A stretch of DNA of 39,479 nucleotides from Candidatus Omnitrophota bacterium (GTDB lineage: Bacteria > Omnitrophota > Gorgyraeia > Duberdicusellales > 4484-171). Made by a program: the position numbers and the translations under genes. The notes beneath the pieces are model-generated. The model searched no databases, had not been told where the DNA came from, and worked only from the letters and a program-made list of their open reading frames with translations. The stretch spans positions 1-39,479 of the forward strand of contig JALOBR010000002.1 of NCBI GenBank assembly GCA_023228195.1, written 5' to 3'. Positions 8,416 to 27,118 of this stretch are shown here, in pieces (positions within the stretch are counted from its first letter, which is position 1; the number at the start of each line of letters is the position of its first letter).

Positions 8416-9996
8416 ATGAATGTAAAAGAGTTGCTTATAAACCAGGCTTCGTTGTTTCCTCAAAAAAGCGCTTTTATCTTTGAAGGCAAAGAAACAACTT
8501 TTTTGCAACTTAAGGATGCCGCATTTAAGATCGCCAGTTATTTTACAAGGCAAGGCATAAAAAAGCCAGATAAAATTGCTATTTTTACCCCAAACACCCC
8601 GGATGCTATTTGCGCGCAGATGGCAGCATATTCAATAGGTGCAACTTTAATACCTTTTGATTTCATGCTTACGGAAAATGAAATCATTCATTTCTTAAAC
8701 CATAGCGAAGCAAAAGTGTTAATTATGCAGCCGAGAAAGGATATAAACGTATTAAACATCCGGGAAAACTGTTATTCGGTAAAATATATAATAACCTGTA
8801 AGGATCATCTTCCCGATTGCGATTTTCTTGATGATATATTGGCAGAGGAAAGTAGTGACGCCCCGGCGCCTTCATCTTCGGATGAAGACCTTGCGGCGGT
8901 ATTCTATACATCCGGTTCAACCGGGCACCCTAAGGGTGTAATGCTTAGCTATAAACAGTTTGATAACCCGGTCGATACGATAAATCATTTTTTGGGAGTT
9001 TCGGAAAATGATATTTATTGTACCGGCGGTATACCTTTTTCCCACGTGGGAGGGCTTAACTACCTGCTTTTAATGATTCGTTTTGCATCAACCGTTATCG
9101 TGATGGGAAGATTCCATCCGATGGAATTTTTGAAAAACATAGAAAAATATAAAGTTACAATATTCTGCATCGTGCCTTCGATGTATGTTGCAATTTTATC
9201 CTTAAAAGAATACGAAAGGTTTAACCTTTCATCTTTAAGATATTCAGTTGTTTTCGGTGCGCCTTCCTCGCCGATTTTGCTTAAGAAATTTCACAGGTCA
9301 TGTCCTAAAGCAATTGTTTTAAATGGATGGGGCATGACTGAAACCGCCGCTCCGAATACTTTTTCACCCCCGGATGAACACAAGATATCCAGCATAGGAA
9401 AATTCGGATTTCGTATGCAGGCAAAGATAATAGATGAAGAAGGGAAATCTTTATTGTATGGAGAAAAAGGCGAACTATTGGTTAGCGGAGAAGGTGTTAC
9501 CAGCGGTTATTACAGAGAGCCTACTTTAAGCTCGGATGCTTTTTGGGGAGAGGGTTGGCTTCGTACCGGTGATATTGCTTATTTTGGAAAAGACGGGCTG
9601 ATATATCTTTCCGGAAGGAAAAAAGACATGATAAAAGTTGCCGGAGAAATAGTTTTTTCATCGGAAGTCGAAGAAAAAATACAACTCTATCCAAAGGTTG
9701 AAGAAGCCGCTGTCATAGGTGTTGCCGATGAATTAAGAGGAGAAGTGCCTAAAGCTTTTATTGTTGCAAAAGAATCCGAAGCGATAGATACTCAGGAATT
9801 AAGGGGCTTTTTAAAAGAGCACCTGGCGCATTTTAAAATTCCCCATTATTTTGAATTAGTCAAAGAGCTTCCCAAAAATAGAGTTGGAAAGATTGATAAG
9901 CAGGCTCTTAAAAATACTGAAGAGGAACAAAACCAAAAAGAGGAATCGGACCAACAAGAGGAACCGAATCAACAAAGTGAAGGAGAAATATCATGA
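8416..9996 (+). CDS. AMP-dependent acyl-CoA/acyl-ACP synthetase-ligase (ANL superfamily)
   Basis: AAGGAGG at 8401-8407, 8 nt before ATG 8416. Motifs YTSGSTGHPKGV, GWGMTET, TGDIAYFGKDGLIYLSGRKKDMIKVAGE and PKNRVGKIDK. It has an acidic/Q-rich C-terminal tail. The tracked start at 8344 lies inside a tandem repeat. Confidence 0.9.
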   Translation: MNVKELLINQASLFPQKSAFIFEGKETTFLQLKDAAFKIASYFTRQGIKKPDKIAIFTPNTPDAICAQMAAYSIGATLIPFDFMLTENEIIHFLNHSEAKVLIMQPRKDINVLNIRENCYSVKYIITCKDHLPDCDFLDDILAEESSDAPAPSSSDEDLAAVFYTSGSTGHPKGVMLSYKQFDNPVDTINHFLGVSENDIYCTGGIPFSHVGGLNYLLLMIRFASTVIVMGRFHPMEFLKNIEKYKVTIFCIVPSMYVAILSLKEYERFNLSSLRYSVVFGAPSSPILLKKFHRSCPKAIVLNGWGMTETAAPNTFSPPDEHKISSIGKFGFRMQAKIIDEEGKSLLYGEKGELLVSGEGVTSGYYREPTLSSDAFWGEGWLRTGDIAYFGKDGLIYLSGRKKDMIKVAGEIVFSSEVEEKIQLYPKVEEAAVIGVADELRGEVPKAFIVAKESEAIDTQELRGFLKEHLAHFKIPHYFELVKELPKNRVGKIDKQALKNTEEEQNQKEESDQQEEPNQQSEGEIS

Positions 9997-10721
9997 TGCA
10001 AAGAGATGTCCATCTGCACGCAAAAGGATTACTTGAGTCTTTACAATTCCGCCAGGGTGATTTTGGCGAAATCGGCATTATCAGCGGACAGCACCAAAGA
10101 GCCCAAAGATGCCTTCAGTATTTGGAAAATCCCGTGAAAAATTTTACTTTTTTAGGTTACACCTTCTGGACCGGCTTATATAAAGGAAAGAAAGTAACTG
10201 TCGGTAACGGCGGTTTCTATGCGCCGGATTCAGCATTTGTTACGGAAATTTTATGCGCGGGGGGAATTAAAACGCTCATCCGGCTTGGTTCTTGCGGAGG
10301 CATGAAACAGGAAATGACTGTCGGAGATTTTGTCGTGGTCGATAAGGTAATAAGAGGCGACGGCGCAACGCGTTATTACGTTGACGATAATTTTGTGGCG
10401 CAAGTAGATAAAGAATTAACCGGTAAACTGGCAGAAATTTTTAAGAAGGAAGGCACGGTTTATCAGGGTGGATGCTGGACAACAGATGCGATGTTTAGAG
10501 AAACAAAAGAAATCGTAAATCCTTATATAGAAAAAGGCGCGATTTGCGTGGATATGGTAACAAGCCCGTTTGTTACGGTTTCCAATGTTTACAAAACGAA
10601 AGTCGCCGCAATTTTGGTAGTTTCAGATAATCTTTTAACCGGTGAGATGGGCTTTGCAGATTTTCGTTTATTTAACGCGGAAGAAAAAATGACAAAAACA
10701 ATATTCGAAATAATAAGTTAG
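9993..10721 (+). CDS. Nucleoside phosphorylase family-1 protein (PNP/UDP/MTAP-like)
   Basis: ATGA overlap with the ligase stop and AGGAG 7 nt upstream. LIRLGSCGG, a DxxIRGDG-type segment and ICVDMVTSP fit the PNP_UDP_1 fold. Confidence 0.75.
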   Translation: MMQRDVHLHAKGLLESLQFRQGDFGEIGIISGQHQRAQRCLQYLENPVKNFTFLGYTFWTGLYKGKKVTVGNGGFYAPDSAFVTEILCAGGIKTLIRLGSCGGMKQEMTVGDFVVVDKVIRGDGATRYYVDDNFVAQVDKELTGKLAEIFKKEGTVYQGGCWTTDAMFRETKEIVNPYIEKGAICVDMVTSPFVTVSNVYKTKVAAILVVSDNLLTGEMGFADFRLFNAEEKMTKTIFEIIS

Positions 10722-10738
10722 TTTTATAAGGGAGTTAT

Positions 10739-25465: not shown

Positions 25466-25611
25466 AAATAACCAAATCCCAAGATACAATAACCAAACAA
25501 TGACCAATAACCAAAGCTTAATAACCAGACAAAAACCAATATCATCGTTTGATTGTTGGTTATTGAATATTGGAGTTTGTTTGGAGCTTGTATCTTGGTC
25601 ATTGGTTATTT
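25466..25611. repeat. CCAA-rich / TTGG-rich long imperfect palindromic element, copy 2 (upstream of the aldehyde dehydrogenase)
   Basis: AAATAACCAAATCCCAAGATACAA... pairs with ...TTGTATCTTGGTCATTGGTTATTT. The arms are built from AACCAA / TTGGTT units. Confidence 0.6.
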
Positions 25612-25621
25612 CATAAAAACA

Positions 25622-27118
25622 ATGATTCCTCATTACCCCTTATTTATCAACGGTGAATTTAAGGAAACTTCAAAGAAGCAGGATGTGATTAATCCTTCAA
25701 CCGGCGAAGTTATTGCAACCGTAAGTATTGCGGAAGCCGGAGAAATCGATTATGCAATAAAATCCGCGCGTGACGCTATAGATTGCGGCCCGTGGCGAAA
25801 CTTTACTTTAGCCGAGCGCAAGGATTTCATTCTAAAAATATCGCAAGGCATCCTTGACCGTGCCGCTGAATTAGCCAGCCTTGAAAGCTTAAACGCCGGT
25901 AAACCCATAAAAGAGACAACCTTTATGGATATCCCTTCTGCTGCGGCTACATTTGATTATTTCGCTAATAATTTAGAAAAATATCTGGCAAAAGAAAACG
26001 TAGAGATAAATTCATCTATTGCCAGCGCGCAGAGCAATTTAGTGCGCGAGCCACAAGGCGTGGTCGTTTTGATAGTTCCCTGGAATTACCCGCTTTTAAT
26101 CGCTTCTTGGAAGTTGGCTCAGGCGCTCGCCGCCGGTAATGCCATTATCTTAAAACCTTCAAGCTTAACCCCGCTTTCTGTTTTGGAATTGGCAAAGATA
26201 ATAAAAGAAGCGGGTTTGCCCGCCGGAGCGGTAAATATAATAAATGCAAGCGGCGATACAATGGGCGAGGCTTTGTGCTCCGATTCCAGAGTAGATATGA
26301 TTTCTTTTACCGGTTCAAACGCAGTAGGCAGAAAAATCCTGGAATATACGTCAAAAAACGTAAAAAAAGTTACTATGGAATTAGGCGGTAAATCAGCAGC
26401 TATAGTTTTAAAAGATGCTGATTTGGAATCTGCAGTTAACGGCTTGTTATGCGCAATATTTTTAAATCAGGGGCAGATGTGCACCGCGATGTCGCGTATC
26501 TTAGTTGAAGAAAGCATTTATGATGATTTCGTAAATGATTTTGTAGCTAAAGCAAAACGTATAAAGCTCGGCCCGGCGCTTAACTTCGAAACTCAGATGG
26601 GTCCGCTGATGTCAGAGGCCCAGCGCAAAAAGGTATTGGAATATGTAGGAAAAGGAAAAACAGAAGGCGGCAGACTTTTATGCGGCGGAGGCATTCCGCA
26701 GCAGGAAGAATTTAAGAAAGGTTTTTTCTTTGAGCCGACTGTATTTGGTGATGCTTCACCAAAAATGAAAATATTTAAGGAAGAAATTTTTGGCCCGGTT
26801 GCCTGCATAAGTAAATTTTCTTCAATTGAGGAAGCTGCGGCATTAGCCAATGATTGTGTTTTTGGTTTAGCGGCGTCTGTGTGGAGTAAGGACGGTTCAA
26901 AAGCGAAAAATTTGGCTAAAGTAATTAATGCAGGCACAGTATGGGTTAATACTTACGGAATGTTTTTTAATGAGCTGCCTTACGGCGGATTCAAGCAGAG
27001 CGGCTTTGGAAAAGAACTTGGAAAAGAAGGATTGTTGGAATATACTAGGCTTAAGAATATCGTTACTGATAAAACCGAAGGTTCAAAGCCGCTGGTAAAT
27101 TATTGGTACGGTTTTTAG
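25622..27118 (+). CDS. NAD(P)+-dependent aldehyde dehydrogenase
   Basis: MIPHYPLFINGEF start, PWNYP, ELGGKS, catalytic Cys in NQGQMCTAMSR, and EEIFGPV. The tracked TTG 25553 start lies inside a hairpin element. Confidence 0.88.
   Translation: MIPHYPLFINGEFKETSKKQDVINPSTGEVIATVSIAEAGEIDYAIKSARDAIDCGPWRNFTLAERKDFILKISQGILDRAAELASLESLNAGKPIKETTFMDIPSAAATFDYFANNLEKYLAKENVEINSSIASAQSNLVREPQGVVVLIVPWNYPLLIASWKLAQALAAGNAIILKPSSLTPLSVLELAKIIKEAGLPAGAVNIINASGDTMGEALCSDSRVDMISFTGSNAVGRKILEYTSKNVKKVTMELGGKSAAIVLKDADLESAVNGLLCAIFLNQGQMCTAMSRILVEESIYDDFVNDFVAKAKRIKLGPALNFETQMGPLMSEAQRKKVLEYVGKGKTEGGRLLCGGGIPQQEEFKKGFFFEPTVFGDASPKMKIFKEEIFGPVACISKFSSIEEAAALANDCVFGLAASVWSKDGSKAKNLAKVINAGTVWVNTYGMFFNELPYGGFKQSGFGKELGKEGLLEYTRLKNIVTDKTEGSKPLVNYWYGF

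What the first reader, a model, noticed from the sequence alone, without database searches (positions are those of the whole stretch)
8416..27118. Type II (KSalpha/CLF/ACP) polyketide synthase cluster with unusual accessory genes in an AT-rich, non-actinomycete-looking genome
The sequence shows a complete minimal type II PKS.
- KSalpha carries the Cys166-His-His triad.
- An ATGA-coupled thiolase-fold paralogue lacks the Cys and is read as the CLF.
- A 76-aa ACP carries a DS phosphopantetheine site.

Aromatic-polyketide accessory genes follow: a PF04199 cyclase, an SRPBCC ARO/CYC-like protein, an SDR ketoreductase and an MFS exporter. An ANL ligase, a possible starter-unit activator, lies upstream.

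The surrounding tailoring set is atypical. It includes a B12-radical SAM enzyme, an amidohydrolase_2 (the family contains aromatic-acid decarboxylases), a class IV PLP enzyme, a PanE-2xTIGR04076 fusion and a PCP_red small protein.

Type II PKSs are known overwhelmingly from Actinobacteria, with only a handful of exceptions such as the Photorhabdus anthraquinone and Clostridium clostrubin systems. Here the base composition, the strong AGGAGG RBS usage and the rny/ymdB and 2-oxoacid:ferredoxin oxidoreductase neighbours point to a different, probably anaerobic and possibly uncultivated lineage. The product is not predictable from known clusters.
Basis: partly seen in the sequence, partly recalled or inferred. 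Interest (0 to 1): 0.85.

Follow-up and report, generated by a model that had tools for sequence, protein, structure and literature searches.

The report
Conserved aromatic polyketide cluster in Omnitrophota
The window comes from an uncultivated Omnitrophota nanobacterium and carries a real, early-branching-type aromatic (type II) polyketide synthase cluster that many relatives keep under strong selection, together with unusual helper genes whose roles are not known.

Summary
Bases 8416-27118 hold one co-directional array:
- an ANL ligase, an NP-I phosphorylase, a DUF2621-like small protein and a PanE-2xTIGR04076 fusion;
- KSalpha (Cys166/His306/His343), an ATGA-coupled CLF (Cys->Lys, both His lost) and an ACP;
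- an OxyN-type PF04199 cyclase, a TcmN-type ARO/CYC, an MFS transporter and an SDR;
- a B12-radical SAM enzyme, an ACMSD-type decarboxylase and a class IV PLP enzyme;
- an MtnA-like isomerase, a class II aldolase-SCP2 fusion and an ALDH.

- KS1 groups with AntD/ActKS and KS2 with CLFs, both apart from FabF.
- The SRPBCC protein's best solved relative is TcmN.
- The whole gene set is co-conserved in 60+ Candidatus Omnitrophota genomes, including Ca. Velamenicoccus archaeovorus, with different flanks and through one rearrangement.

Further findings:
- Synonymous sites are as saturated as in flanking pheS/pheT, yet KS1 dN/dS is 0.01-0.03. This indicates vertical inheritance under strong constraint rather than a recent island.
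- A pair of TIGR04076 domains accompanies this early-branching PKS type in three phyla. In the clostridial cluster one copy is fused to the ACP.
- PNP-MtnA-aldolase-ALDH resembles the DHAP shunt and the fluoroacetate route.

Omnitrophica KS-CLF pairs were already catalogued in 2023, so rarity is overstated. Product and function remain unknown.

The parts
8219..8246 (+). Sigma-70-like promoter (TTGACT-16-TAAAAT) in front of the cluster
   Evidence: It is the best promoter-like site in the region, matching 10 of 12 positions. The same sequence is conserved in the closest relative, L002. Function is inferred.
8269..8398 (+). Three tandem 44-nt hairpin-containing repeats in the 5' leader of the first gene
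   Evidence: TRF score 204 with 90% matches. The leader fold has a z-score of -4.2. L002 holds a single copy. There is no Rfam match. The role is unknown.
8416..9996 (+). ANL (acyl-AMP-forming) ligase, FadD/MenE-like; marks the left boundary of the cluster
   Evidence: PF00501 265 bits plus PF13193. The best NCBIfam match, PRK06187, is below its cut-off. The RBS and ATG are at 8416. The gene is conserved at the left edge in relatives whose upstream flanks differ.
9993..10721 (+). NP-I family nucleoside phosphorylase/nucleosidase (PNP_UDP_1)
   Evidence: PF01048 117.5 bits. DeoD-type is the best NCBIfam match at 88 bits, and every match is below its equivalog cut-off, with weak hits to MtnN, HpnG and futalosine hydrolase models. 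Identity to close relatives is 85-93%, with dN/dS 0.02-0.05.
10739..11002 (+).
   Evidence: Pfam hits are sub-threshold. The protein is conserved across Omnitrophota loci. It is 36-37% identical to a small protein in the Nitrospirota-labelled cluster, and it matches the C-terminus of a U32 peptidase there.
11136..12743 (+). PanE/ApbA-type reductase fused to two TIGR04076 domains
   Evidence: ApbA and ApbA_C. TIGR00745 scores 181.7, above its cut-off of 141, and TIGR04076 matches in 2 stretches. In most relatives the tandem TIGR04076 part is a separate protein of about 198 aa that is about 80% identical.
12810..14063 (+). KSalpha ketosynthase (Cys166-His306-His343)
   Evidence: The best PDB hit is AntD (6smo_B) at 356 bits. 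It falls in the KSalpha clade. dN/dS is 0.008-0.03.
14060..15292 (+). Chain length factor (KSbeta): Cys->Lys, His->Asp, His->Asn; ATGA-coupled to the KSalpha gene
   Evidence: It falls in a Cys-less clade with 100% bootstrap support. Its nearest 50%-identity representatives include proteins from Clostridium beijerinckii/puniceum and Ktedonobacter.
15445..15675 (+). Acyl carrier protein, Ser36 in GVDSTE
   Evidence: PF00550 46.7 bits; sequence.
15705..16502 (+). OxyN-type Zn cyclase (PF04199)
   Evidence: PF04199 97.5 bits. The HIGTHLDYSFH motif is present. Identity to the cluster cyclases is 50% (Nitrospirota-labelled), 46% (Clostridium) and 40% (Polyangia).
16651..17088 (+). Monodomain TcmN-type aromatase/cyclase (SRPBCC)
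   Evidence: PDB hits: TcmN ARO/CYC at 88 bits and the polyketide cyclases 3tl1 and 2kf2 at 75-76 bits. Pfam Polyketide_cyc2 scores 29.4.
17166..18287 (+). MFS transporter
   Evidence: PF07690 146 bits. It is the least conserved member of the cluster, 37-48% identical in distant loci.
18301..19074 (+). Classical SDR oxidoreductase (possible ketoreductase)
   Evidence: adh_short 175 bits. The best PDB hits are generic: clavaldehyde dehydrogenase and FabG. It is 29% identical to the KR of an ant/pcy-type cluster.
19252..20709 (+). B12-binding radical SAM enzyme (CX3CX2C at CPSACTFC)
   Evidence: PF02310 plus PF04055. The best NCBIfam matches are BchE at 198 bits and HpnJ at 147 bits, both below their cut-offs. 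Sequence. Identity to close relatives is 90-96%.
20846..21775 (+). ACMSD/LigW-type metal-dependent decarboxylase (Amidohydro_2)
   Evidence: PF04909 61 bits. PDB hits are ACMSD, 5-carboxyvanillate decarboxylase and IDCase. The same family occurs in the clostridial clusters at 27-32% identity.
21772..22581 (+). Class IV PLP enzyme (IlvE/PabC-like); present in only a subset of relatives
   Evidence: PF01063 167 bits. NCBIfam matches are below their cut-offs. It is absent from many loci.
22589..23536 (+). MtnA-family (methylthio/deoxy)ribose-1-phosphate isomerase
   Evidence: PF01008 181 bits. TIGR00524 scores 203, above its cut-off of 186. The mtnA equivalog scores 234, below its cut-off of 279.
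23741..24220 (-). 159-aa hydrophobic ORF on the opposite strand; not part of the conserved cluster
   Evidence: It has no family hit and no counterpart in any related locus.
24456..25457 (+). Class II aldolase/adducin-fold enzyme with a C-terminal SCP2 domain
   Evidence: PF00596 124 bits plus PF02036. NCBIfam matches to aldolase, FucA and MtnB models are all below their cut-offs.
25553..27118 (+). NAD(P)-dependent aldehyde dehydrogenase; last conserved gene of the array
   Evidence: PF00171 560 bits. In the Velamenicoccus-type arrangement it lies next to the aldolase, the isomerase and the PNP.

Best explanation
This is a vertically inherited, early-branching-type aromatic (type II) polyketide biosynthetic cluster of a Candidatus Omnitrophota bacterium.

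Shown by sequence:
- A KSalpha with a complete Cys-His-His triad.
- A translationally coupled, catalytically dead CLF.
- A discrete ACP, a TcmN-type ARO/CYC and an OxyN-type Zn cyclase. This is the KS-CLF-ACP-TcmN-OxyN gene content described for the earliest-branching type II PKSs.

Inferred mechanism:
- KSalpha/CLF iteratively condenses malonyl-ACP. Malonyl transferase and PPTase must come from elsewhere in the genome.
- The product is a poly-beta-ketone of roughly C16-C20. The two cyclases fold and aromatise it.
- The SDR and the PanE-type reductase reduce carbonyls.
- The ACMSD-type enzyme removes a carboxyl group.
- The B12-radical SAM enzyme performs an O2-independent C-modification (methylation or oxidation) suited to an anaerobe.
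- The MFS protein exports the product.

The TIGR04076 pair is most likely an accessory subunit that works on or with the ACP. In clostridia one copy is fused to the ACP, and here the pair is fused to the PanE reductase.

The NP-I phosphorylase, MtnA-like isomerase, class II aldolase and ALDH form a DHAP-shunt-like or fluoroacetate-pathway-like route: 5'-deoxynucleoside, then pentose-1-P, then pentulose-1-P, then DHAP plus an aldehyde, then an acid. Most likely this route disposes of the 5'-deoxyadenosine made by the radical SAM enzyme. The resulting acid may then be activated by the ANL ligase.

Selection on the cluster is stronger than on PheRS. Its product is therefore probably important to the organism's way of life, not an optional antibiotic.
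For: Identity of the parts.

KSalpha and CLF placement:
- PDB ranking for KS1 is AntD 356 bits, then BsFabF 343, then ActKS 332, with the highly reducing KS Iga11 (6kxd) at only 207.
- KS1 shares a KSalpha segment and motifs.
- NJ tree support: KS1 with AntD 99%, KSalpha clade 98%, FabF clade 99%, Cys-less CLF clade 100%.
- CLF relatives carry Arg or Lys at the Cys position, including the Clostridium beijerinckii/puniceum and Ktedonobacter proteins.

Architecture of early-branching systems: PMC7693217.

Co-conservation:
- 66 loci, almost all labelled Omnitrophota, keep the ANL-to-ALDH set with unrelated flanks.
- A second gene order in the Velamenicoccus group puts ANL-PNP-MtnA-aldolase-ALDH-rSAM together, directly upstream of the PKS core.

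Vertical descent and constraint:
- Cluster GC equals flank GC.
- pS is 0.5-0.8 in both cluster and flank genes.
- dN/dS is 0.01-0.04 for KS1, KS2, PNP, rSAM and the cyclase, against 0.04-0.11 for PheS, PheT and Dus.

TIGR04076 link across three phyla, and its fusions.

The same cyclase, SRPBCC and Amidohydro_2 families occur in the clostridial cluster.
Against: - No product, expression or biochemical data were obtainable.
- The CLF lacks the Gln typical of actinobacterial CLFs. As a whole protein it scores higher against FabF (296 bits) than against ActCLF (213 bits) in PDB.
- The tree is neighbour-joining on 36 sequences. It has no aryl-polyene or MIBiG-wide references, and relationships inside the CLF clade are poorly supported.
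- The SDR, ANL and B12-rSAM proteins match no functionally specific model.
- No PPTase or malonyl-CoA:ACP transacylase lies in the cluster.
- The roles given to TIGR04076, PanE, the DUF2621-like protein and the nucleoside-to-acid module are inferences from gene context only. The AF2 model of TIGR04076 has no structural match.
- The Nitrospirota-labelled sister cluster has an AFOR but no PNP, MtnA or aldolase within 10 kb. This weakens a purely 'salvage' reading of the ALDH.
Confidence: 0.75

Rival explanations
1. The array is two independent units that merely sit side by side. One is a type II PKS cluster. The other is a housekeeping DHAP-shunt operon (PNP, MtnA-like isomerase, class II aldolase, ALDH) that salvages 5'-deoxyadenosine or MTA for the whole cell and has no specific tie to the polyketide.
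For: - The phosphorylase, isomerase and aldolase are the three enzyme types of the known DHAP shunt (established knowledge). The MtnA-like protein passes the TIGR00524 cut-off.
- The Nitrospirota-labelled sister cluster lacks these genes within 10 kb.
- In the window, the PNP gene is separated from the other three by 12 kb.
Against: - The four genes stay inside the cluster in every locus long enough to show them.
- They move as a block to sit between the ANL ligase and the B12-rSAM gene in the Velamenicoccus-type order, and they never leave the cluster.
- The PNP is among the most constrained proteins of the array, at 85-93% identity and dN/dS 0.02-0.05.
Confidence: 0.2
2. The nucleoside-to-acid module builds part of the molecule instead of salvaging a by-product. 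There are two versions.
(a) MTA or 5'-deoxyadenosine is converted to an aldehyde and then an acid. The ANL ligase loads that acid as a non-acetate starter unit.
(b) A radical SAM enzyme adds a 5'-deoxyadenosyl group to the polyketide, as MqnE and HpnH do. The phosphorylase, isomerase and aldolase then trim the adduct to a two-carbon side chain, which the ALDH oxidises.
For: - The contiguous order ANL-PNP-MtnA-aldolase-ALDH-rSAM in the Velamenicoccus group.
- The enzyme order is the same as in the fluoroacetate route (established knowledge).
- The HpnG and futalosine-hydrolase models are weak hits of the PNP, and HpnJ is the second-best model for the rSAM.
- An aldehyde-processing enzyme (AFOR) also sits in the Nitrospirota-labelled cluster.
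- The SCP2 lipid-binding domain on the aldolase suggests a hydrophobic substrate.
Against: - All the model hits cited are far below their cut-offs.
- Known adenosylating radical SAM enzymes are not B12-dependent (established knowledge).
- No halogenase or SAM-cleaving enzyme is present.
- The ANL ligase gives no substrate clue.
Confidence: 0.15
3. The KS pair belongs to fatty-acid, ladderane-like or polyene lipid synthesis, not to aromatic polyketide synthesis. Automated tools might well call it a type II FAS or 'ladderane' cluster.
For: - Both KS proteins score best against FabF models in NCBIfam. KS1 even passes the PRK07314 subfamily cut-off, at 431.7 against 387.
- KS2's best PDB hits are FabFs.
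- antiSMASH-type 'ladderane' calls have been reported for Omnitrophota MAGs (PMC9902471).
- Many non-actinobacterial 'CLFs' are classed as FAS KS by NaPDoS2 (PMC10132072).
Against: - KS1 clusters with AntD and ActKS, and KS2 with CLFs, both apart from FabF.
- KS2 has lost Cys and both His.
- Two polyketide cyclase families sit directly downstream.
- The array has no dehydratase, enoyl reductase, FabH or FabD.
- ActCLF itself also scores better against FabF than against ActKS, so high FabF scores are not diagnostic.
Confidence: 0.05

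Closest known systems
Clostridial type II PKS cluster of Clostridium beijerinckii/puniceum (very probably the clostrubin clr cluster; locus L067) and its Bacillota MAG relative L071
   Same: - KS-CLF followed by an ACP, a PF04199 cyclase and a monodomain SRPBCC cyclase.
- An Amidohydro_2 enzyme in the cluster.
- Two TIGR04076 domains.
- A CLF with Arg or Lys at the Cys position and similar gate residues, W-G-L-S against W-A-L-S here.
- An anaerobic host.
- Identities to the window proteins: KS 46%, CLF 44%, cyclase 46%, SRPBCC 41%.
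   Different: - The clostridial cluster fuses one TIGR04076 copy to the ACP. It also has PPTases, a KSIII, CMD/DUF362/DUF169 genes and FrsA-like hydrolases.
- It lacks the ANL ligase, PanE, the DUF2621-like protein, the B12-rSAM, the SDR and the PNP-MtnA-aldolase-ALDH module.
- That L067 is the published clr cluster is my inference from the species names, not a checked fact.
Photorhabdus anthraquinone (ant, AQ-256) and pyxidicycline/dendrubin-type systems
   Same: - KS1's best solved relative is AntD, at 356 bits, and the two group with 99% bootstrap support.
- The clusters of this type contain a PF04199 cyclase, a ligase and an SDR ketoreductase. I saw this in a Polyangia example, L070.
- They are described as early-branching non-actinobacterial systems (PMC7693217).
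   Different: - These systems use a didomain TcmN-TcmN cyclase and an AntI-like hydrolase, and they have no TIGR04076.
- The window's ANL ligase and SDR are only 25% and 29% identical to the L070 ligase and KR, so orthology is not supported.
Uncharacterised cluster in a Nitrospirota-labelled MAG (L068) and a syntenic contig (L069)
   Same: It is the nearest relative outside Omnitrophota. It has a DUF2621-like small protein, PanE, two TIGR04076 genes, KS (57%), CLF (53%), ACP, cyclase (50%) and SRPBCC (57%), in the same order.
   Different: - It has an aldehyde:ferredoxin oxidoreductase, a U32 peptidase fused to a DUF2621-like domain, and an FMN reductase.
- These stand where the Omnitrophota cluster has its ALDH, B12-rSAM and SDR.
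- No ANL, PNP, MtnA or aldolase is seen within 10 kb.
- The cluster is itself unstudied.
DHAP shunt for 5'-deoxyadenosine/MTA salvage, and the Streptomyces cattleya fluoroacetate route
   Same: The enzyme families occur in the same order: nucleoside phosphorylase, MtnA-type isomerase, class II aldolase. The fluoroacetate route also ends in an aldehyde dehydrogenase (the pathways themselves are from established knowledge).
   Different: - Here the module is embedded in a PKS cluster.
- The aldolase carries an SCP2 domain.
- The phosphorylase is DeoD-like, not MtnP-like, and is below all equivalog cut-offs.
- There is no fluorinase or chlorinase.
- Substrates were not tested.

Membership tests
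Type II (aromatic) polyketide synthase, minimal PKS | KSalpha with the Cys-His-His catalytic triad | tested here: met
   Cys166 (STGCTAA), His306 (HGSST), His343 (GHPLA) and Lys338.
Type II (aromatic) polyketide synthase, minimal PKS | KSalpha groups with known KSalpha proteins and not with FabF/FabB | tested here: met
   NJ tree: with AntD 99%, with ActKS 98%, and a separate FabF clade at 99%. The best PDB hit is AntD. KS1 shares a segment with AntD and ActKS that BsFabF lacks. Limits: NJ method, 36 taxa, and no aryl-polyene references.
Type II (aromatic) polyketide synthase, minimal PKS | Adjacent KS paralogue without the active-site Cys (CLF/KSbeta) | tested here: met
   Cys->Lys, His->Asp and His->Asn. 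The gene overlaps the KS1 stop in ATGA. It falls in a 100%-supported Cys-less clade with ActCLF.
Type II (aromatic) polyketide synthase, minimal PKS | Gln at the CLF position of the Cys (the actinobacterial hallmark, linked to decarboxylative priming) | tested here: not met
   The window has Lys. The non-actinobacterial relatives, including the Clostridium and Ktedonobacter proteins, have Arg or Lys at this position. This looks like a clade trait and not a disqualifier, but priming may work differently.
Type II (aromatic) polyketide synthase, minimal PKS | Discrete ACP with a phosphopantetheine-attachment Ser | tested here: met
   PF00550 46.7 bits with GVDSTE.
Type II (aromatic) polyketide synthase, minimal PKS | Dedicated aromatase/cyclases in the cluster | tested here: met
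   The SRPBCC protein hits TcmN ARO/CYC at 88 bits. The PF04199 cyclase scores 97.5 bits and is 40-50% identical to the cyclases of three other type II PKS clusters.
Type II (aromatic) polyketide synthase, minimal PKS | Produces an aromatic polyketide | not testable with these tools
   No chemistry or expression data were accessible.
Early-branching non-actinobacterial type II PKS architecture (KS-CLF-ACP-TcmN-OxyN; Hillenmeyer 2015 as cited in PMC7693217) | Gene content KS, CLF, ACP, TcmN-type cyclase and OxyN-type cyclase, all contiguous | tested here: met
   Positions 12810-17088 hold KS, CLF, ACP, the PF04199 cyclase and a monodomain SRPBCC. The order of the two cyclases is OxyN-type first. 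The architecture is described.
Type II fatty acid synthase (FabF/FabB elongation) | Catalytically competent KS accompanied by dehydratase, enoyl reductase, FabH and FabD functions | tested here: not met
   KS2 is catalytically dead. No FabZ/A, FabI/K/L, FabH or FabD family was found in positions 8416-27118.
DHAP shunt (5'-deoxyadenosine/MTA salvage) | Nucleoside phosphorylase (or nucleosidase plus kinase) acting on 5'-deoxy- or methylthio-adenosine | tested here: inconclusive
   The protein is a PNP_UDP_1 family member (117 bits). Its best model is DeoD-type at 88 bits against a cut-off of 230. The MTAP and MtnN models are only weak hits.
DHAP shunt (5'-deoxyadenosine/MTA salvage) | MtnA-type pentose-1-phosphate isomerase | tested here: met
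   TIGR00524 scores 203.4, above its cut-off of 185.85. The mtnA equivalog models fall just below theirs.
DHAP shunt (5'-deoxyadenosine/MTA salvage) | Class II aldolase that cleaves the pentulose-1-phosphate to DHAP plus an aldehyde | tested here: inconclusive
   PF00596 scores 124 bits. The aldolase, FucA and MtnB-dehydratase models score alike, and all are below their cut-offs. Activity is not testable here.
B12-dependent radical SAM enzymes | N-terminal cobalamin-binding domain plus a CX3CX2C radical SAM core | tested here: met
   PF02310 and PF04055, with CPSACTFC. No functionally specific model is reached: BchE scores 198 against a cut-off of 481.

The most novel reading that the evidence does not exclude
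The cluster may not be an optional antibiotic island. It may be a lineage-defining pathway of Omnitrophota nanobacteria that makes, without O2, an aromatic polyketide the cell depends on. Candidates are a quinone-like redox carrier or a molecule needed for the epibiotic or predatory life cycle.

Under this reading, the TIGR04076 pair is a previously unrecognised, ancient subunit of the earliest type II PKSs. It would couple the ACP to a PanE-type reductase. The radical-SAM and nucleoside-trimming module would supply chemistry that aerobes perform with oxygenases.
Probability: 0.25. Interest if true: 0.85.

Novelty: new variant of a known kind. Interest (0 to 1): 0.65.

Why it matters
Type II PKSs are studied almost entirely in actinomycetes as antibiotic factories. 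Here the same core machinery is a strongly constrained, vertically inherited trait of an uncultivated phylum of ultra-small, partly predatory anaerobes with genomes of 1-2 Mb. That bears on two open questions.

1. What did the earliest aromatic PKSs look like, and what were they for?
2. How do strict anaerobes tailor aromatic polyketides without oxygenases?

The recurrent TIGR04076 pair gives a concrete new component to test in the notoriously hard reconstitution of KS-CLF systems. It is fused to the ACP in clostridia, fused to PanE here, and free-standing in the Nitrospirota-labelled cluster.

Ca. Velamenicoccus archaeovorus carries the cluster. It has a complete genome, an enrichment culture and a published proteome, so the product and its role in predation could be looked for directly.

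Tried and rejected
- Rfam scan of the whole window: no match.
- Promoter and terminator scans inside the cluster: no more sites than in shuffled sequence. Only the site at 8219-8246 is supported by conservation.
- PDB sequence search for the PF04199 cyclase: one marginal hit only.
- PDB search for the B12-rSAM: weak hits to AprD4 and TokK, giving no functional assignment.
- AF2 model of the tandem TIGR04076 region (pLDDT 78, pTM 0.69) searched against PDB: no fold match, best E 0.23 and TM below 0.3.
- 'AntG-like' reading of the ANL ligase: not supported, at only 25% identity to the ligase of an ant/pcy-type cluster.
- 'ActKR-like C9 ketoreductase' reading of the SDR: not supported by the PDB ranking.
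- 'PCP_red' label for the small protein: sub-threshold.
- Recent horizontal transfer as the cause of the high KS identity: rejected, because synonymous sites are as saturated as in flanking housekeeping genes and GC content is uniform.
- Literature: two Omnitrophota genomics papers do not mention polyketides. The limonene enrichment paper does not mention polyketides either, and its one 'ketoacyl' match concerns another organism. The V. archaeovorus proteome paper (PMC9004380) is not held. TIGR04076 has no functional literature.
- Chain length from the CLF gate residues: suggestive only. The pattern W-A-L-S resembles the clostridial W-G-L-S.
- The dN/dS value for ANL against L002 is an alignment-frame artefact and was ignored.

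Full report
**What is in the sequence**

The window has about 40% G+C throughout, with no compositional break at the cluster. From 8416 to 27118 nearly all genes lie on the + strand. Family scans give the following array.
- An ANL ligase. Its ATG at 8416 lies behind AAGGAGG.
- An NP-I family nucleoside phosphorylase.
- An 87-aa DUF2621-like protein.
- A PanE/ApbA reductase fused to two TIGR04076 domains.
- Two ketosynthase paralogues and a 76-aa ACP.
- A PF04199 cyclase and a 145-aa SRPBCC protein.
- An MFS transporter and a classical SDR.
- A B12-binding radical SAM enzyme with CPSACTFC.
- An Amidohydro_2 protein and a class IV PLP enzyme.
- An MtnA-family isomerase, a class II aldolase with a C-terminal SCP2 domain, and an aldehyde dehydrogenase.

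KS1 has Cys166, His306 and His343. KS2 begins at the ATG of an ATGA overlap with the KS1 stop. It carries Lys, Asp and Asn at the three catalytic positions. The ACP has GVDSTE.
- The 'PCP_red' label is sub-threshold.
- A 159-aa ORF on the opposite strand, at 23741-24220, is a non-conserved insertion.

**Whose genome it is**

The 120 best homologues of KS1 are 75-96% identical, and every one that carries a name is Candidatus Omnitrophota/Omnitrophica. A scan of one genome per GTDB species found 66 loci.
- They include the complete genome of Ca. Velamenicoccus archaeovorus LiM (64% KS1 identity) and a 1.27-Mb MAG chromosome.
- A few contigs are labelled Planctomycetia, Deltaproteobacteria, Victivallales or Methanosarcinales but carry the same cluster at 61-84% identity. 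These are most simply mislabelled or mis-binned.

**Is the KS pair a KSalpha/CLF pair?**

- Against solved structures, KS1's best match is the Photorhabdus anthraquinone KS AntD at 356 bits. B. subtilis FabF follows at 343, ActKS at 332 and the polyene-type KS Iga11 at 207.
- KS1 shares a segment with AntD and ActKS that FabF lacks, and the motifs HGSSTxQND and GFSGIHS.
- KS2 scores higher against FabF (296 bits) than against ActCLF (213 bits). ActCLF itself also prefers FabF to ActKS, so this is not diagnostic.
- An exhaustive search of 50%-identity representatives shows KS2's nearest single-domain relatives are Cys-less proteins with Arg or Lys at the Cys position.
- Those relatives include proteins from Clostridium beijerinckii/puniceum, the clostrubin producers, and from Ktedonobacter racemifer.
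- In a neighbour-joining tree with 200 bootstraps, KS1 joins AntD (99%) and ActKS (98%), apart from a FabF clade (99%). KS2 lies in a 100%-supported Cys-less clade with ActCLF.

The tree is small and distance-based, but every line of evidence agrees.

**Are the cyclases polyketide cyclases?**

- The SRPBCC protein's best solved relatives are TcmN ARO/CYC (88 bits, E 4e-24) and two other polyketide cyclases.
- The PF04199 protein keeps the metal motif.
- It is 40-50% identical to the cyclases in three other type II PKS clusters.
- KS-CLF-ACP plus TcmN-type and OxyN-type cyclases is the architecture described for the earliest-branching, non-actinobacterial type II PKSs (PMC7693217).

**Are the odd neighbours part of it?**

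tblastn of all window proteins against the 66 loci shows ANL through ALDH conserved together, while the flanks differ.
- pheS, pheT and dus occur only in the closest relatives.
- One distant relative, L023, has Era, nitroreductase and TrmA-like genes upstream instead.
- In the Velamenicoccus group the order is ANL-PNP-MtnA-aldolase-ALDH-rSAM-small protein-PanE-KS-CLF-ACP-cyclase-SRPBCC-MFS-SDR-(CBM11-like)-Amidohydro_2-(second B12-rSAM).

The genes were therefore reshuffled as blocks but kept together. The class IV PLP enzyme is present in only a subset of loci. The right-hand boundary after ALDH could not be checked in window-type loci, because the 10-kb flanks end there.

**Selection**

For four relatives that share the housekeeping flanks, synonymous differences are equally saturated in cluster and flank genes (pS 0.5-0.8).
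- dN/dS is 0.008-0.03 for KS1 and 0.02-0.05 for KS2.
- It is 0.02-0.06 for the PNP, B12-rSAM and cyclase.
- It is 0.04-0.11 for PheS, PheT and Dus.

The very high protein identities thus reflect purifying selection at least as strong as on phenylalanyl-tRNA synthetase, not recent transfer.

**Comparison with other early-branching clusters**

A profile of non-Omnitrophota CLFs and context look-ups gave three reference points.

1. The clostridial cluster (C. beijerinckii, with a related Bacillota MAG).
   - It has KS-CLF, a 175-aa protein, the PF04199 cyclase, the SRPBCC protein and further genes including Amidohydro_2.
   - The 175-aa protein is a TIGR04076-ACP fusion.
   - A second, free TIGR04076 copy lies downstream.
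2. A Nitrospirota-labelled MAG and a syntenic contig hold the closest outside relative.
   - Identities are KS 57%, CLF 53%, cyclase 50%, SRPBCC 57% and PanE 49%.
   - The order is small DUF2621-like protein, aldehyde:ferredoxin oxidoreductase, PanE, two separate TIGR04076 genes, KS, CLF, ACP, cyclase, SRPBCC, FMN reductase.
   - The syntenic contig L069 also shows, just upstream, a U32 peptidase carrying a DUF2621-like C-terminus.
3. A Polyangia ant/pcy-type cluster has a ligase, a KR, a didomain TcmN and no TIGR04076.

The two TIGR04076 repeats of the window are orthologous one-to-one with the two Nitrospirota genes, at 53% and 65% identity. In most Omnitrophota the tandem is a free 198-aa protein that is about 80% identical. 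Each domain has three invariant Cys and one His. An AF2 model (pLDDT 78) shows a beta-beta-alpha-beta-beta unit per repeat. It has no match in the PDB.

**How it most likely works**

Shown: the identities and conservation described above. Inferred: everything below.
- KSalpha/CLF/ACP build a poly-beta-ketone. CLF gate residues W-A-L-S resemble the clostridial W-G-L-S, which weakly suggests a mid-length chain.
- The two cyclases aromatise the chain.
- The ACMSD/LigW-type enzyme decarboxylates it.
- The SDR and PanE reduce carbonyls.
- The B12-rSAM performs oxygen-independent tailoring.
- The MFS protein exports the product.
- Fusion logic ties TIGR04076 both to the ACP and to PanE, so it may dock the reductase, or another partner, onto the ACP.
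- PNP, MtnA-like isomerase, class II aldolase and ALDH follow the enzyme order of the DHAP shunt and of the fluoroacetate route. The simplest role is removal of 5'-deoxyadenosine made by the radical SAM enzyme.
- Supply of an acid to the ANL ligase, or trimming of an adenosylated intermediate, are less likely alternatives.

**What is known and what is new**

Non-actinobacterial type II PKSs are well documented.
- Ca. Omnitrophica appears in a 2023 catalogue of KS-CLF pairs, without further analysis (PMC10132072).
- Omnitrophota genomics papers do not discuss the cluster.

What appears new:
- Its conservation and constraint across many Omnitrophota.
- The extended gene set.
- The cross-phylum TIGR04076 association.

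I rate it a new variant of a known kind, with interest 0.65. It is real and informative, but the product and function remain unproven.

Noticed in passing
window 8269-8398 (promoter at 8219-8246): Three tandem 44-nt repeats lie between a conserved sigma-70-like promoter and the RBS of the first cluster gene. Each holds a CTCGGC-N11-GCCGAG hairpin. The closest relative, L002, has the same promoter but one copy. There is no Rfam family, and the leader folds with z = -4.2.
   Followed up: partly
L012, L014, L044, L059 and other loci: Contigs labelled Methanosarcinales archaeon, Planctomycetia, Victivallales or Deltaproteobacteria carry the Omnitrophota cluster at 61-84% KS identity. They are probably mis-binned or mislabelled. 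The 'archaeal' KS-CLF pairs reported from Ca. Methanoperedenaceae MAGs (PMC10132072) could be the same artefact, given that Omnitrophota attach to methanogens. This was not checked.
   Followed up: no
window 6328-6978: A 216-aa protein with no family hit lies just upstream of the ANL ligase. It stays next to the ligase in relatives L001 and L005-L007, which lack pheS, pheT and dus at that position. It could be a subclade-specific regulator of the cluster.
   Followed up: no
window 23741-24220 (minus strand): A 159-aa hydrophobic ORF is inserted between the isomerase and the aldolase. It is absent from all relatives. A good promoter-like site at 24402-24430 follows it, just before the aldolase.
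   Followed up: partly
L001 12480-13521; L002 13813-14739 and 17380-18400: The closest relatives have insertions of about 1 kb in intergenic gaps of the cluster. The window has only about 150 nt at these positions. The content was not examined.
   Followed up: no
L050 16861-17544 and 18689-20176: The Ca. Velamenicoccus archaeovorus version of the cluster has two extra genes. One is a CBM_11-like protein between the SDR and Amidohydro_2. The other is a second B12-radical SAM gene after Amidohydro_2.
   Followed up: partly
L069 2774-4216, 5064-6965, 13308-14033: The Nitrospirota-type sister cluster, seen in full on the syntenic contig L069, contains a U32 peptidase fused to a DUF2621-like domain. 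The U32 family includes O2-independent hydroxylases such as UbiU/V and TrhP (established knowledge). It also contains an aldehyde:ferredoxin oxidoreductase and an FMN reductase. These may be anaerobic counterparts of the Omnitrophota tailoring genes.
   Followed up: partly
window 9920-9975: An 18-nt tandem repeat of 3.1 copies lies inside the 3' end of the ANL ligase gene, just before its overlap with the phosphorylase start. It implies a repeated hexapeptide at the C-terminus.
   Followed up: no
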